Below are positions 51,001-57,000 of a stretch of 64,000 nucleotides of DNA, in pieces. This DNA comes from Escherichia coli. GTDB taxonomy: Bacteria; Pseudomonadota; Gammaproteobacteria; Enterobacterales; Enterobacteriaceae. A program made the position numbers. Each line of letters opens with the position of its first letter. Position 1 is the first letter of the stretch. The DNA lies in NCBI RefSeq assembly GCF_048403405.1, contig NZ_CP183129.1; one strand, given 5' to 3'.

Positions 51001-54000
51001 ATACGGTGGTGGCGGCACCACCGTTGCGGACATCCAGCGTTCCGCCATCATCCACACGGGTATTAGTGGCTGTGTGTCCGCTCAGCACATCCAGACGTCC
51101 GCCATTTTCCAGTACGACATTATCAGCCTTACCCGCCACAACGGAGAATGCTCCCAGGCGGTTTGTGCCGGTGACGGTTGCAGCTGTACTGGTAACCAGT
51201 GCACCGCCCGTGTTCTGGGTGACATCAGACGCTTTACCGCCGGCATTCACCTGCAGCTTTCCTTTCTGGTTGATGGTGGTATGCGCGGCAGTTCCTCCTT
51301 CCTTAATCACCTGCCAGCCATCACGGTTTATCAGCGTCTCTGTTGCCGTGCCACCGTTGTGTACATACTGGTTACCCCCCTCCAGTCGGGTGTTATGTGC
51401 CTCTCCGTGTACCGTCTGGTCACCACCGGCGTAAATGAGGGTGTCCCGTGCCATCCCCGAAGACCAGATAACCTGCCGGCCATTTTTATTGATGGTGGTG
51501 GATTCAGCCGTCCCTCCGACCATCTGACCGCTGGACACATTTTCAGACTCCGGACCACCTTCTGCACCGGTGTTGACGATGGTTCCGGTTGCCAGTCCGC
51601 CATGTTTTATGGTCTGGTAACCATCCTGGTTAATAATTGTACCGGCAGCTTTCCCTCCCCCGTGTACCCACTGCTCACCTCTGTTATCCAGCGTGGTGTT
51701 CACCGCCAGTCCGTTAAGGCTCTGCCCTCCGCCATCACGAATAACCGTATCACTGGCAGTTCCTCCTGCCTGCACAATCTGACGACCATTTGCGGTGACA
51801 GTGGTGTTTCTGCCTGTGCCACCCGCTTTTATCCATTGCCCGCCGGTGTTTTCGTCACTGTCCGGCCCCAGCTCAAGCCCGGTACTGACAGTCACGCCAT
51901 TAGCTGTTCCGGATACAAACTGGTTGTCATGGTTTACCAGTGTTCCGCCATTCACTGTTTCACCCGGGTGCACAACGATGTCAGCAGACAGCACCGGGAG
52001 TGGCGTGACCGCGGCAAGAGACAGTGCAACCGCCACACCGCCACGTTTACCCCGTGCGCGGGCCAGTTCGGAGGCAACCACGAAAGCGCCCGTAATGTGA
52101 TTCCATACCAGCCTGTAGCAGGTATTCAGATGTCGTTTCATCAGCATTTCCTTAATCAGAGTGAGGGTGAATAAAAAAGCCGGTATCCACAGATGTGGAT
52201 ACCGGCAGGTAAAGGGTTACAGTGCCGGAGGTCCGGCTGACGGAAGTTTCTGACGTGTGGCTCTGTTGTTCCCTGAATCTCATGTCTGTGTGTATCTGCG
52301 CACGTTGCTAACAGGAGTTATTATTAGCATAACGATCGATATTAACGATCGGTAAAATAGGTATTGATCGTTTTATTCTATTATCAAGCTATTGCACGGA
52401 CAAGAGAGACAGTAACGAAAACAGCGCTTTTGTGAGCAGACTCAGAGGCAGGGAGGACATCATCCACAACAGGTTCAGAAGAAGATCCAGTTCCATACCG
52501 CGCGGGCAACAGAGACCACTGTGTCACGGACGGCACGCAGAACCGTGCGTGCAACAGAGGCAACACAGACGCTCTCCGCTGTGTCAAATATCCGGTCCAC
52601 CGCACCGGTAAACTGCTCACGGGCCTGAGCGCGGACAGATTCCGTGCGCAGCTCGTCCTGCAGGCGGGTCATCAGGGGACTGGCGGCATGGTCGGGAAGC
52701 GCTGTCATGAGCGCACTGACCAGCGTATCCACTTCCCAGCCGGTGCGGGCCGATACGGCCACAACCGGATGTACAGGCCGGAACAGACGGAATACCGCCT
52801 CCGTTTTTTCGCGAATGTTCTGTGCCTGTGCGGGAGAGGGCTGAATGCCGGCCATATCCCATTCATGGCAGGGCTCCGTTTTGTCGGCCTGTGTCACCAC
52901 AAACAGCACCTGCTGATGTCCGCACTGCAGGATGTGTCGCCAGAAATACTCATCCACAGACAGGGCCCGGTCATCGGCTTTAATCAGCCACAGCACCAGG
53001 TCCAGTTCAGGCAGAATGTCACGGTACAGGGCTTCATACTCTGCATCCCTGTCCCGGCTCTCGCCCACCCCGGGCAGGTCAGTGATAACCATGCTGTAAC
53101 CGTGACCACTCAGACGGAAGCGCTGCACTTCCCGGGTGCCGGCGTGAACATCACTGACCGGTGTGACCTCCCCCTGAAACAGGGCATTACAGAGTGAAGA
53201 TTTACCGGCCCCGCTTTTACCCATAATGCCAATCACGGGCTCGTGACGGGTGAGTTTGCGCAGATGTTCCAGGATGTGACGGGAAAGCGAGTAAGGCAGG
53301 GAGGAGAGCGGTTTTTCAATTGCCTCAATGGCATCAGACGGATTCATACATGTATTCCCGGTGAAAAAAGACAAAACCCCGCACACCGGAAAGGTGGCGG
53401 GGGATCCACGGAGATAATATCTGTCTGAAATTGTTTGGAATCGATGGGGATGTTGAGTATTAACATGAAGGAGGGCAGGAGTTATCCGTTATTGGGTGAT
53501 ATCCTTCCATGAAAATACGCGGTTATTGTTAAACAGCAGGCTGATTACTCCGTAAAGGAGAAAAATATTCATCTTGCAGCCTGATTATCAGGTGTGTTTA
53601 TGTTTACTGAGGTGAGTATTTTTCAGTATATTGTCGGGGCAGTCAGTGGGAGATATTAAATTTACGTTTAGAGTTATCTTGCTTCTGCTGTGTATTTTTA
53701 TAAGAGTGCGCACGTAATGATATCTGTTGATACCATGTTGTTAAGTGTTTCCCTTCCGGGTCATGCGTACTTGCAAAATGGCATCTGAATCGATCACGGT
53801 TTGGCCAAACCGTGATCGAATAGAGAGGAATACGCACGTAATGATTAAATGCTTTTGTTACACCATTCTTCCGGCATGAATATTTATCCAGTTCCCTTTT
53901 TTATTTGTGTAGTGATACTGTCGGAATAGCGTTCAGTAATGTGAAGTGTCCTGTAAAAAAACTTTAATAAATGTGTCATCCTGGTCAGGAAATATCTGCT

Positions 54001-57000
54001 GAGATATTATTAGTTGGTGGTGTTTTTACTGAGTAATAGCTGGCTTTTAATTCCTGAACTGAAATACTGTCGCTCGTCAGGGTTTAATTAAAACTGGATG
54101 ATGATGTGAAAATGAAGGCTGGTTTTTGTGTTTGTCGAAGAAGTGTTATTTTAATCCATTCTCATCATTGGCTGGCGATTATACAGAAGTATTTGAAGAA
54201 AAAATGTTGCATTTTATCTGTGTCAGCAGGGAGGAAGTATTTTATTGATGTATCAGTATTAAATGGTTTTTGTTATTTATAAAAATGTCATCCTGTCCAT
54301 AGAATATTGTACTCAGCATTCAGTGCAGGAACTGTCATCTTCTTTATTTTATTCTTCTTCAGGAGGGCAGTTTTCTGAAAGCGTTACTCCGGGGAAACTG
54401 TTTATGTTTATTCCCGGCAGGAAACCCGTACCTGCAATACCCTGGATGATGCTTTTTGCTGGTACGTTGTTGTGTGAAAATTAATCAACACGTGTGTTCC
54501 GGAGAGCGCCCGTAGACGCACAGATTCATTCTAACATTCTTTAGCGACAAAATACCGAATGGTTATTATTTAATCTGAAAATCGACAGAAATTTTTATCC
54601 TGTATTGATTCTGCTGCTATTTTTGCTATTAGTAGCAATAGTTGCGGTACTTTATGTTCTGTGTGTTGTGAGGTCATTATGCCATACTTTCAGTATCCTG
54701 ATGAGTTTCCCCTGAGCTCGCTGCCTCCACTCATTCGTGATGCCGTTATTGAAGCTCAGCAAATCACGCAGGCTCCCCTGGGGCTTGTGGCAGCATCTGC
54801 CCTGGGCGCTGTTTCACTTGTCTGCCAGAATCTGATTGATGTCTGCAGACTGAATACACTGCGGGGGCCGGTTTCTCTTTTCTTACTGACGCTTGCTGAG
54901 TCCGGAGAACGAAAAACCGCAGTGGACAAATTATTAATGGAGCCCCTGTACCAGCAGGAGATGCTGTTATATTCCAGACACAAAAATGAACTGACGACAT
55001 GGAAAAATAAGGAAGAGCTTTTAAAGGCGCAGAAAAAAGCATTGTTGTCAAAACTGAATAAAGAACTCCGCAAAGGCGCGGATGAGTCAGAAACGCTCAG
55101 ACAACTGGAAGCGCTTCAGAAAAACAGAGGGGAAAAACCTGTAAGATATAAATTCATTTTTAATGATGCCACGACAGCAGCAATTAAAGATCAGCTTTGT
55201 GGTCAGTGGCGTTCAGTGGGTATCATGTCTGATGAAGCCGGTATAATATTTGATGGGTATACCCTGTCTGAGCTGCCTTTTATTAACAAAATGTGGGATG
55301 GCTCCGTATTGTCGGTGGACAGAAAGAATGAACCCGAACAGATGATTGAAAATGCCAGAATGACATTATCCCTCATGGTACAACCCGGTCTTTTTGACCG
55401 ATATATGGAGCGAAAAGGTTCTGTTGCCAGGGACAGTGGTTTTCTTGCCCGTTGTCTAATCAGTAAACCTGCCACCACGCAGGGGAAACGCTTTATTAAC
55501 GGAGCTGTGACCCCGGGAGGATCATTAACGGCATTTCATGAACGATTAATGGAACTGGCCAGAGGCAGTATTGAAAAATCCAGTAAGGATGAACGTTATT
55601 GTCTGCATTTTTCTCCTGAAGCGCAAAAAATATTTATTGATCACTATAATGTTCTGGAGCAGGATTTGTCTCCTTCCGGACCCTTAAGCCAGTTTCGGGG
55701 GCATGTTTCAAAAAAAACAGAAAACATTGCGAGAATTGCTGCGTTATTGCAGTATTTCAGTCAGGGTGAAGGGAAAATCTCTGCCGATATCATGACGTCT
55801 GCTGTCGTAATAAGTTCGTGGTACACAGATGAATATAAAAAATTATTTGCGTTACCTGATGAATCTGAACTGCAGCTGCAGGACGCCCGGGAGCTGCTCG
55901 ACTGGCTCATTGAGGAGTGCCGCGGAGAATGCCCGCCCCGTGTCAGGAAAAATTATATTCTCCAGTGTGGCCCGGGCCGGTTCCGGAACAGGAAAAAGCT
56001 GAACGTCCTGCTGAACATTCTTGCATCTCAACTCAGGCTCTCTGTCGTGCAGGAAGGAAAAACCACCTATGTCCTGCTTTCCGAAATAAACAATATCACG
56101 CTGCCTGAACTGAATGCGTGCTACAGCCAGAAACTGATAAGATGGCATGAGCAATCCTTTGGCTTATAATGTTCCCTGTTGCTGAGACGGATTATTCAGT
56201 GGTGGTATCGCAGTATGCCCGTCACCCCCGCTTCTGCATGAGGGTGACGGAGGAAAAGTAAGTGTGCGGAGGCCCGGGAGCGTTATGAATCAACAGGCGT
56301 ATAACAGGTACTCGTCAATCATCAGTTCCAGCTCGCGCTTTTCCCGTTTGCGCGCCACAGCCCAGTTTTCAAGCTCTGCATGTGATTTATGCTTTAACTC
56401 TTCAGTCCAGGGCTGCATGGAGTGGGCACACATCAGATCATACCAGCACAGCCATATCAGCGTGTGGTAGAGATCACGATCGTCGAAACGCCGGAGCAGG
56501 CTGTTCAGCCTGTTTGCCAGCCGGTTTTCACCCAGACGATGTAGCTCACTGAGTAAAACGCCGCCCAGATTAAAATGTGTAAGCAGCATGATTTCATGGG
56601 TCTGAATGCTGGTCATTAACCCTTCCTGAATGGCAGGAATGAACGGTGGTGTTCCCGGGTTGACGACCTGATAGAGTCCCTGTGGTGCCACTGAGATGAT
56701 GGTGCCTTTTTCTGGCAGAAAAAAGTGGGCCAGGGTCAGGCGGTGATAACCATGAAGATGCGGAGCCCCCATTCCATGAGCGACGATAAGCCTCGTCACG
56801 TTTGTCATCCATTTCTGATGCTGGATGAGCAGCAGCTCACACCGGTTTTCAAGTTTTTGCATAATATTCTCTCCTTTAGCGCGCAGCAAAATGCCTCCGG
56901 GGGCCGGATCATGCCTTTGCTGCGGTTGAACGGATAACGGTCAGGAATTACGGACGGGACTGTGCAATACGCGCCTGCAGCCAGGCTTCCACTTCACTTT

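What the first reader, a model, noticed from the sequence alone, without database searches (positions are those of the whole stretch)
53387..54678. Long AT-rich non-coding gap between the GTPase gene and the DUF3987-like gene
About 1.3 kb with dense stops in all frames and high A+T content separates two divergent island genes. This is typical of xenogeneic-silencing targets and could hold a promoter or regulatory RNA for the island genes.
Basis: seen in the sequence. Interest (0 to 1): 0.22.

Follow-up and report, generated by a model that had tools for sequence, protein, structure and literature searches.

The report
AT-rich non-coding spacer in island
The 1.3-kb gap is a real, non-coding, A+T-rich stretch of a common E. 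coli pathogenicity-island backbone, partly built from transposon debris and probably bound by the silencing protein H-NS; it is ordinary rather than a new kind of element.

Summary
The window is identical to E. coli CFT073 (PAI-pheV). The gap runs from 53348 to 54678 (1331 bp). It starts at 53348, not 53387, because the GTPase gene starts at the ATG at 53347. GC is 38% against 49% for the window.

No gene is annotated there in any RefSeq row listed, and most of the gap occurs in about 35% of complete E. coli genomes. The only ORF ever annotated, c3653 (73 aa), was withdrawn in 2009 and is not conserved. No reading frame matches a protein family, period-3 signal is near background, and there is no Rfam match, iteron or DnaA-box cluster.

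The gap is a patchwork:
- the 5' flank of the GTPase gene, with a conserved leftward terminator hairpin and a few last codons of a lost gene;
- a degenerate dispersed palindromic repeat;
- a 65-bp miniature element made of the two ends of an IS21-family insertion sequence, with a 6-bp target duplication;
- about 1.1 kb of single-copy AT-rich DNA that must hold the yfjI promoter.

It diverges as fast as silent codon positions and tolerates IS10 and IS3 insertions. Published CFT073 ChIP-seq lists the adjacent yfjI gene (c3652) as H-NS/StpA-bound. The silencing idea is therefore indirectly supported, and the regulatory-RNA idea is not. Interest is low.

The parts
53348..54678 (.). Whole intergenic gap between the GTPase and yfjI genes: 1331 bp, GC 38.3%, nothing annotated in RefSeq
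53364..53402 (-). Intrinsic-terminator-like hairpin (10-bp G+C-rich stem 53377-53402, U-tract 53364-53376), ending 16 nt before the GTPase ATG. It points leftward only. It is detected in all three lineages, and this proximal segment matches upstream of GTPase genes in most E. coli genomes
   Evidence: centroid about -19.5 kcal/mol; consensus fold -24 to -27 kcal/mol
53431..53446 (-). Scar of a lost upstream gene: homologue of the stop codon (TAA in the relative, CAA here) plus the last 4-5 codons (..IDS..) of a 383-aa hypothetical gene that precedes the GTPase gene in other islands. Homology ends here
53454..53520 (.). Degenerate copy of a dispersed palindromic repeat, about 80% identical to the stem-loop annotated after eaaC in phage P-EibC. 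Present in lineages A and B; in lineage C a 73-nt gap relative to A and B covers it
53772..53836 (.). 65-bp miniature element (TG...CA) made of the outer 33-34 bp of the left and right ends of an IS21-family insertion sequence. Its centre is the perfect 30-bp palindrome 53790-53819
53766..53771 (.). Left copy of the 6-bp target-site duplication (CGTACT). The right copy is CGTAAT at 53837-53842. The empty site GGTCATG-CGTAAT-GATT is seen in lineage B
53837..53842 (.). Right copy of the 6-bp target-site duplication (CGTAAT)
54263..54484 (+). ORF c3653 (73 aa) of the original 2002 CFT073 annotation. It was withdrawn and is intact only in lineage A, so it is not a gene
54276..54305 (+). Promoter-like site TTTATA-N18-TAGAAT pointing at yfjI, positionally conserved in lineages A and B. 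This is a candidate only, since hit counts equal chance
54357..54381 (+). Weakly conserved hairpin (CTTCAGGA...TCCTGAAG in lineages B and C, shorter here) around an AGGAGG motif. In lineage B its loop holds a G-run of variable length
54605..54638 (+). Inferred proximal yfjI control region: TTGATT-N16-TATTAG, overlapped by the palindrome TTGCTAttagTAGCAA (54623-54638; GCTATTAATAGC in lineages B and C) and preceded by a GCTATT direct repeat. A GAGG Shine-Dalgarno motif lies at 54670-54673
   Evidence: read directly from the sequence; function inferred, not tested
52475..53347 (-). Flanking GTPase family gene (290 aa; MMR_HSR1 domain)
54679..56169 (+). Flanking YfjI family gene (DUF3987; PHROG 2373 'DNA helicase'; old tag c3652; listed as H-NS/StpA-bound in CFT073)

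Best explanation
The interval is non-coding DNA that belongs to the backbone of a widespread family of E. coli genomic islands (YfjI helicase - gap - GTPase - IsrC - Ag43). It is a mosaic with four parts.

1. The first ~100 bp are the conserved 5' flank of the GTPase module. They hold a one-directional intrinsic terminator and the last few codons of a gene that was lost by rearrangement.
2. A decayed dispersed palindromic repeat follows.
3. In this lineage only, a 65-bp miniature IS21-family element has inserted with a 6-bp target duplication.
4. About 1.1 kb is single-copy DNA of 60-67% A+T. It must contain the promoter and leader of the divergently transcribed yfjI gene.

The most likely working model is as follows. 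The AT-rich DNA nucleates H-NS/StpA filaments, possibly helped by the island's own Hha paralogue. These filaments keep yfjI and spurious promoters in the spacer silent. The terminator, together with a C-rich, G-poor leftward transcript that would favour Rho, shields the GTPase-Ag43 side from read-through.

Shown here: non-coding status, mosaic anatomy, distribution, and the published listing of the adjacent gene as H-NS-bound. Inferred: H-NS occupancy of the gap itself, promoter positions, and terminator and Rho function.
For: - Identity and distribution: 100% identical to CFT073; the same arrangement of flanking genes in three lineages with 78-88% identity. The single-copy parts occur in 1902-1906 of 5426 genomes, median one place per genome, with no annotation in any row listed.
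- Non-coding: no Pfam hit in six frames. Only a 26-codon ORF survives across lineages; 9 of its 11 differences between lineages A and B change the amino acid, and some variants carry nonsense or frameshift changes. The period-3 z-score is 1.7, against 9-12 for neighbouring genes. c3653 was withdrawn.
- No overall constraint: 12-22% mismatches plus 112-189 gap columns, against about 10% and 14% at third codon positions of the GTPase and yfjI genes. IS10 and IS3 insertions occur in other strains.
- Terminator: found in all three lineages, and it is the only strong consensus structure.
- Lost-gene scar.
- IS21-derived element: its ends match the two ends of an intact istA/istB element at 94%. There is a target duplication and an empty site. 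It is present in 14/14 lineage-A variants and 0/35 others.
- Second repeat.
- H-NS: c3652 (1491 nt, yfjI) is listed as H-NS- and StpA-bound in CFT073. An hha paralogue lies about 3.4 kb away in the island.
Against: - H-NS occupancy of the intergenic DNA itself was not seen. The published table is per gene, and c3652 has only moderate occupancy (0.28 on a scale that reaches about 1.4).
- Matches to the H-NS high-affinity motif are not enriched.
- Promoter-like sites occur at chance frequency and none is conserved in all three lineages.
- If the terminator is efficient, it is unclear how the GTPase gene is transcribed at all.
- Neutral-looking divergence means much of the 1.1 kb may have no function.
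Confidence: 0.62

Rival explanations
1. The gap is functionless debris. It would be the fully decayed remains of one or more ancestral genes plus transposon fragments, retained only because deletion has not yet removed it. The yfjI promoter would be the only functional part.
For: - Divergence is at or above the rate of silent codon positions, with many indels whose lengths are not multiples of three.
- IS10, IS3 and IS21-derived insertions are tolerated.
- A recognisable scar of a lost gene sits at 53431-53446.
- There is a faint period-3 signal in 53454-53771 (z 3.4).
Against: - No protein similarity in any frame, and no paralogous DNA elsewhere in 5426 genomes.
- The gap length stays within 1181-1347 bp in 49 of 50 distinct variants across three lineages, although E. 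coli usually loses useless DNA.
- The adjacent gene is H-NS-bound.
Confidence: 0.22
2. The gap encodes a non-coding RNA. This could be a small RNA ending at the conserved terminator (minus strand), or a long structured leader for yfjI (plus strand) that regulates island genes.
For: - A conserved intrinsic terminator has no gene directly in front of it.
- There are conserved hairpins at 54357-54381 and about 54417-54435 on the + strand.
- Strand composition is asymmetric.
- An sRNA (IsrC/IS102) exists in the neighbouring gap.
Against: - No Rfam family matches at E<=1.
- Single-sequence folding z-scores are unremarkable except at the inserted palindrome.
- The consensus fold is near zero over most of the gap, and the blocks that fold well in one lineage are not conserved.
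- The terminator is explained as the orphaned terminator of a lost gene.
- No conserved promoter lies at a suitable distance.
Confidence: 0.1
3. The AT-rich DNA is the replication origin, functional or vestigial, served by the adjacent YfjI helicase. This would resemble the origins next to the rep/primase-helicase genes of P4, SaPIs and PICIs.
For: YfjI matches PHROG 2373 'DNA helicase' and DUF3987. The gap is AT-rich, directly adjacent to that gene, and lies in a P4-like island backbone.
Against: - No tandem or dispersed iterons, and no over-represented 6-9-mers compared with shuffled sequence.
- No DnaA-box cluster.
- No similarity to phage or satellite genomes beyond the 67-bp palindromic repeat.
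Confidence: 0.04
4. The gap holds a real small protein gene: c3653 (73 aa) or its conserved 26-codon C-terminal part at 54404-54484.
For: c3653 was annotated in the original CFT073 genome. The 26-codon ORF is intact in 12/14 lineage-A, 28/29 lineage-B and 4/6 lineage-C variants.
Against: - c3653 was ruled out by the 2009 reannotation and is not called by PGAP.
- The full ORF is intact in only 1/29 B and 0/6 C variants.
- Nine of eleven substitutions between lineages fall at codon positions 1 or 2, and nonsense and frameshift variants exist.
- The Shine-Dalgarno-like GGGGA is not conserved (sequence).
- The loci were fetched with a pattern inside this ORF, which inflates its apparent conservation.
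- No Pfam match.
Confidence: 0.02

Closest known systems
H-NS/StpA-bound AT-rich DNA of horizontally acquired islands (xenogeneic silencing), as mapped in CFT073 by Hustmyer et al. 2022 (PMC9765446)
   Same: The DNA is A+T-rich, lies in a lineage-specific island (PAI-pheV), and sits next to a gene (c3652/yfjI) that the ChIP-seq lists as H-NS- and StpA-bound. An Hha paralogue is encoded nearby.
   Different: Occupancy of this intergenic DNA itself is not reported, no de-repression data exist, and the H-NS high-affinity motif is not enriched.
yeeP-isrC-flu region of the E. coli K-12 CP4-44 cryptic prophage
   Same: The window has the same module order of GTPase (YeeP/YfjP/YkfA family), IsrC (Rfam IS102, 259.7 bits at 52166-52371) and Ag43. 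The first ~55-68 nt of the gap, with the terminator hairpin, match upstream of GTPase genes in most E. coli genomes.
   Different: Apart from that proximal segment and the two dispersed repeats, the gap (about 1.1 kb of single-copy AT-rich DNA) is found only at this locus. It occurs in about 35% of genomes, where the GTPase gene faces a divergent yfjI.
Miniature elements (MITE-like) derived from IS21-family insertion sequences
   Same: The termini are TG...CA, both ends match the ends of an intact istA/istB element, there is a short target duplication, an empty site exists in relatives, and the element is multi-copy on chromosomes and plasmids.
   Different: It is extremely short at 65 bp. It keeps only the outermost repeat of each multi-repeat end, so the two ends abut as a perfect 30-bp palindrome. 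I did not check whether it already has a name in ISfinder.
Replication origins next to helicase/primase genes of P4, SaPI and PICI satellites
   Same: An AT-rich non-coding tract lies directly beside a mobile-element helicase-like gene.
   Different: No iterons or any repeated short motif were found, and there is no evidence that this island replicates.

Membership tests
Xenogeneic-silencing (H-NS) target | A+T content clearly above the genome or flanking average over several hundred bp | tested here: met
   61.7% A+T over 1331 bp and 67% over 54000-54300, against 50.9% for the window and 40-45% for the flanking GTPase and Ag43 genes
Xenogeneic-silencing (H-NS) target | Lies in horizontally acquired, lineage-specific DNA | tested here: met
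   CFT073 PAI-pheV region. The single-copy parts of the gap are present in 1902-1906 of 5426 E. coli genomes, flanked by IS66 copies and island genes
Xenogeneic-silencing (H-NS) target | H-NS occupancy measured on the DNA | tested here: inconclusive
   The published per-gene ChIP-seq lists the abutting gene c3652 (yfjI) as H-NS- and StpA-bound; c3654 and c3655 do not appear in the stored text. The intergenic DNA itself is not tabulated
Xenogeneic-silencing (H-NS) target | Transcription rises when hns/stpA are deleted | not testable with these tools
   Needs RNA-seq or reporter data
Known RNA family (Rfam 15) | Covariance-model match | tested here: not met
   Nothing in the gap at E<=1. The only matches in 48000-60000 were IS102/IsrC at 52166-52371 and a chance-level sR60 match (E 0.88), both outside the gap
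Structured non-coding RNA (any) | Conserved secondary structure or covariation across lineages | tested here: not met
   The consensus fold is near 0 kcal/mol over most of the gap. The exceptions are the terminator hairpin and two weak + strand hairpins
Protein-coding gene (c3653 or other) | ORF intact in diverged relatives, with mostly synonymous change | tested here: not met
   No ORF of 25 aa or more is intact in all three lineages except a 26-codon one, where 9 of 11 changes are non-synonymous
Protein-coding gene (c3653 or other) | Similarity to a protein family, and codon periodicity | tested here: not met
   No Pfam hit in six frames beyond two chance-level matches (E 0.075 and 0.18). 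Period-3 z is 1.7, against 9-12 for real genes
IS21-family-derived miniature element (53772-53836) | Both termini match the left and right ends of an intact IS21-family element and end in TG...CA | tested here: met
   Positions 1-34 and 33-65 match L100 6971-7004 and 9577-9609 at 94%, flanking istA/istB
IS21-family-derived miniature element (53772-53836) | Target-site duplication and an empty site in relatives | tested here: met
   CGTACT and CGTAAT flank the element. Lineage B has GGTCATG-CGTAAT-GATT uninterrupted. The element is present in 14/14 A, 0/29 B and 0/6 C variants
IS21-family-derived miniature element (53772-53836) | Multiple dispersed copies | tested here: met
   Matches in 2667 of 5426 genomes, up to 50 places per genome, with 660 places on plasmids
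Intrinsic (Rho-independent) terminator (53364-53402, minus) | G+C-rich stem-loop followed directly by a U-tract | tested here: met
   10-bp stem, 5-nt loop, then UUUUGUCUUUUUU. Actual termination was not measured
Iteron-type replication origin | Arrays of short repeated initiator-binding sites next to an AT-rich tract | tested here: not met
   No tandem repeats, no repeat family with more than two copies, no enriched k-mers, and one 1-mismatch DnaA-box-like site

The most novel reading that the evidence does not exclude
The ~1.1 kb of single-copy AT-rich DNA is not debris. On this reading it is a maintained silencer and insulator cassette, or a long regulatory leader. It would recruit H-NS/StpA with the island-encoded Hha to gate expression of the island's YfjI helicase, and so gate island replication or mobility. 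That would explain why its length stays at 1.18-1.35 kb in three lineages that differ by 12-22% and why it persists in a third of E. coli genomes.
Probability: 0.1. Interest if true: 0.4.

Novelty: new member of a known kind. Interest (0 to 1): 0.15.

Why it matters
The finding has modest value. It records that a 1.3-kb stretch with no annotated gene, found in about 35% of E. coli genomes including CFT073, ATCC 25922 and ST131 strains, is non-coding. It also shows that the old ORF c3653 should stay withdrawn.

The anatomy explains what looked odd. The perfect 30-bp palindrome is the joined ends of an IS21-family element, and the terminator directly in front of the GTPase gene is orphaned from a lost gene.

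The gap is a convenient test case for H-NS silencing of an island helicase gene, next to the well-studied Ag43 phase-variation locus. No new mechanism is implied.

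Tried and rejected
- Remnant of the 383-aa gene that precedes the GTPase gene in other islands. 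tblastn found nothing beyond the last few codons.
- Internal repeats or an old tandem duplication of about 300 bp. Self-blastn and Tandem Repeats Finder found nothing significant except the palindrome.
- Comparison with other genera. YfjI relatives in other genera are only about 50% identical and sit in a different gene order, so they gave no comparable intergenic DNA.
- Old locus tags c3656-c3660 in the literature gave only irrelevant hits. c3652-c3654 together with CFT073 gave none.
- The Pichon et al. sRNA screen of ExPEC islands does not mention this locus.
- RfaH ops element: none in the gap.
- H-NS high-affinity motif TCGATAAATT: three 2-mismatch hits in the gap, which is uninformative.
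- Sigma-70 promoter scans gave counts equal to the shuffled expectation in all three lineages.
- ssDNA-promoter or long-hairpin (Frpo-like) idea for a conjugative leading region: no long hairpin apart from the inserted palindrome.
- Coordinates of ChIP peaks in the Hustmyer supplements. The per-gene sheet is truncated before 3.49 Mb and no peak table with coordinates is held.

Full report
**1. Observation**

The window around the finding is 100% identical to E. coli CFT073 (NC_004431 3489277-3490568, reverse strand), ATCC 25922 and many other strains. In RefSeq the neighbouring genes are a GTPase family protein (window 52475..53347, minus) and a YfjI family protein (54679..56169, plus). Nothing is annotated between them.

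The gap is therefore 53348-54678, 1331 bp. GC is 38.3%, against 49.1% for the window and 55-60% for the GTPase and Ag43 genes. The + strand is G+T-rich, and every frame has 20-29 stops.

The stop density is about what this base composition predicts. About 15% of equal-sized windows in this island are equally or more AT-rich.

**2. Distribution and relatives**

- At least 80% of the gap is present in 1865 of 5426 complete E. coli genomes. Its single-copy parts occur in 1902-1906 genomes, usually once per genome.
- None of the roughly 100-200 rows listed has an annotated feature under a match covering most of the gap.
- Three lineages exist with the same flanking genes: A (this window), B (L002, about 88% identical) and C (L003, about 78%).
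- A metagenome scan gave 50 distinct variants. All but one are 1181-1347 bp long.
- YfjI relatives in other genera are about 50% identical and sit in a different gene order, so the gap appears specific to E. coli-type islands.

**3. Coding potential**

- None of the six frame translations matches Pfam beyond two chance-level hits (E 0.075 and 0.18).
- The three longest ORFs have no family match.
- Only one ORF of 25 codons or more is intact in all lineages, a 26-codon ORF at 54404-54484. Nine of its eleven differences between lineages A and B are at codon positions 1 or 2. Some variants carry nonsense or frameshift changes. Its conservation is also inflated, because my search pattern lay inside it.
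- The period-3 signal has z = 1.7 for the gap, against 9-12 for the neighbouring genes.
- The original 2002 CFT073 annotation did place a 73-aa ORF here: c3653, 3489471..3489692, equal to window 54263..54484. It is on the list of 608 genes ruled out by the 2009 reannotation (PMC2785843, Additional file 1), and PGAP does not call it.

**4. Selection**

Between lineages the gap differs by 12-22% at aligned positions and by 112-189 gap columns. Third codon positions differ by about 10% in the GTPase gene and about 14% in yfjI.

The blocks of very high identity between pairs of lineages change partners along the alignment, which indicates recombination mosaics rather than constraint. Other strains carry an IS10 insertion (9-bp duplication, about 105 nt from the GTPase start) or an IS3-family insertion in the gap. 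There is no sign of overall purifying selection.

**5. Anatomy**

*(a) 53348-53453.* This belongs to the GTPase module and is nearly invariant. Its first ~55-68 nt match upstream of GTPase genes in most E. coli genomes.

- It holds a strong hairpin followed by UUUUGUCUUUUUU on the minus strand (53364-53402). The hairpin ends 16 nt before the GTPase ATG.
- This is the only strong consensus structure in the gap, and the terminator scan finds it in all three lineages.
- In other islands a 383-aa gene sits directly upstream. Homology to it stops at 53446, after the stop-codon position and the last 4-5 codons.
- The terminator is therefore the orphaned terminator of a lost gene.

*(b) 53454-53520.* This is a degenerate copy of a dispersed palindromic repeat.

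- It is about 80% identical to the stem-loop annotated after eaaC in phage P-EibC.
- It is present in lineages A and B. In lineage C a 73-nt gap relative to A and B covers it.
- The repeat occurs in 3270 of 5426 genomes, with a median of three places per genome.

*(c) 53772-53836.* This is a 65-bp insertion found only in lineage A: 14/14 A, 0/29 B and 0/6 C variants. It carries the perfect 30-bp palindrome 53790-53819.

- Its two halves match, at 94%, the left and right ends of an intact 2.6-kb IS21-family element (istA/istB) on plasmid pEC-172.
- That element's left end carries several GATCAYGRTTTGGCA repeats, and a solo right end shows degenerate copies.
- It is flanked by CGTACT and CGTAAT, and lineage B shows the empty site CGTAAT.
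- The element is dispersed on chromosomes and plasmids.

*(d) 53526-53765 and 53843-54678.* These are locus-specific, single-copy AT-rich DNA.

- There are no iterons, enriched k-mers, DnaA-box cluster, ops site or Rfam match.
- Two weak hairpins on the + strand are conserved.
- Promoter-like hexamer pairs occur at chance frequency. Those shared by lineages A and B include TTTATA-N18-TAGAAT at 54276-54305.
- Reading the sequence directly, a weak TTGATT-N16-TATTAG lies 40-75 nt before the yfjI ATG. It overlaps a palindrome, TTGCTAttagTAGCAA here and GCTATTAATAGC in lineages B and C. This looks like an operator-controlled promoter, but that is inference.

**6. Silencing**

Hustmyer et al. 2022 (PMC9765446) mapped H-NS, StpA, RNAP and RfaH in CFT073 by ChIP-seq. 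Their list of H-NS-bound genes (Data set S1E) includes c3652, length 1491 nt. Its order after c3637-c3639 and its length identify it as the yfjI gene abutting the gap.

- WT H-NS occupancy is 0.277 and StpA occupancy is 0.241.
- By the H-NS signal it is called bound in wild type, the rfaH and stpA mutants and the hns single mutant, but not in the hns stpA double mutant.
- The list jumps from c3652 to c3681, and c3654 (GTPase) and c3655 (Ag43) do not appear anywhere in the stored text.
- The analysis is per gene, so the intergenic DNA is not scored.
- A local H-NS patch that covers yfjI and not the G+C-rich genes on the other side fits nucleation in the AT-rich gap.
- The island also encodes an Hha paralogue.

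**7. Mechanism (most likely, confidence about 0.6)**

The gap is a non-coding divergent control and spacer region. H-NS/StpA bind the AT-rich DNA and keep yfjI, and spurious promoters in the spacer, repressed. Leftward transcripts would be C-rich and G-poor, which favours Rho. They meet an intrinsic terminator just before the GTPase gene, so the GTPase-IsrC-Ag43 side is insulated.

How the GTPase gene itself is transcribed remains unexplained. Rival explanations, in order of likelihood:
- pure debris (0.22)
- an RNA gene (0.10)
- a helicase-served origin (0.04)
- a small protein (0.02)

**8. Comparison with known systems and verdict**

The closest known things are:
- H-NS-bound AT-rich island DNA;
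- the K-12 yeeP-isrC-flu module, of which this is the fuller island version;
- IS21-derived miniature elements.

Nothing here requires a new category. It is an uncharacterised but ordinary member of a known kind, and interest is low (0.15). The most novel reading left open is a maintained silencer or insulator cassette that gates the island helicase. I give it about 10% probability.

Noticed in passing
window 52166-52371 (-): Full-length match to Rfam IS102/IsrC sRNA (259.7 bits, E 3e-50) in the 327-bp gap between the GTPase gene and agn43. This is the same arrangement as yeeP-isrC-flu in K-12.
   Followed up: partly
window 53772-53836; parent element L100 6971-9609; solo ends L098 3500-3610 and L099 3440-3535: The 65-bp miniature element is built from the outermost parts of both ends of an IS21-family insertion sequence. 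It has a 6-bp target duplication, is dispersed in 2667 of 5426 E. coli genomes (up to 50 places), and also occurs on E. coli, Klebsiella and Salmonella plasmids, for example an IncFIA/IncFII one. No row listed annotates it as an element.
   Followed up: yes
window 53454-53520; L102 2514-2546: A second dispersed palindromic repeat of about 60-75 bp. It was annotated only once, as a 'stem_loop' after the autotransporter gene eaaC of phage P-EibC. It occurs in 3270 of 5426 genomes (median 3 places, up to 16) and often as half-copies next to IS elements. Its origin is unknown.
   Followed up: partly
window 31623-31645 (-): TTTCATTCCGATTCCGGGCACCA is a 3-mismatch copy of the 3' end of tRNA-Phe, with no tRNA gene anywhere in the window. 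It is probably the direct-repeat scar marking a junction between two islands inserted in tandem at pheV.
   Followed up: no
lineage-B loci (e.g. L002 about 8865), equivalent to window ~54361-54366: In lineage B a G-run in the loop of the conserved hairpin varies between genome and metagenome variants. Its form ranges from GGGGGT to a nine-G run, and the following T is sometimes missing. This is either slipped-strand variation or homopolymer assembly error. The window's lineage has only GGG here.
   Followed up: no
L078 (IS10, 9-bp duplication at window-equivalent 53451-53459) and L101 3745-4958 (IS3 family): Other strains carry full insertion sequences inside the gap, so it tolerates disruption.
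   Followed up: partly
window 15098-22319 (+): ORF lengths of 1236, 3801, 1029 and 996 nt match c3695-c3692. These are low-GC genes next to kpsM (probably capsule genes) that the CFT073 ChIP-seq lists as both H-NS-bound and RfaH-bound. They form the most AT-rich part of the window (minimum GC 28% near 20250).
   Followed up: no
window 56170-58990: Downstream of yfjI lie a 190-aa hypothetical gene, a 68-aa helix-turn-helix (AlpA-like) regulator and an hha paralogue, separated by further long unannotated AT-rich gaps. These gaps were not examined.
   Followed up: no
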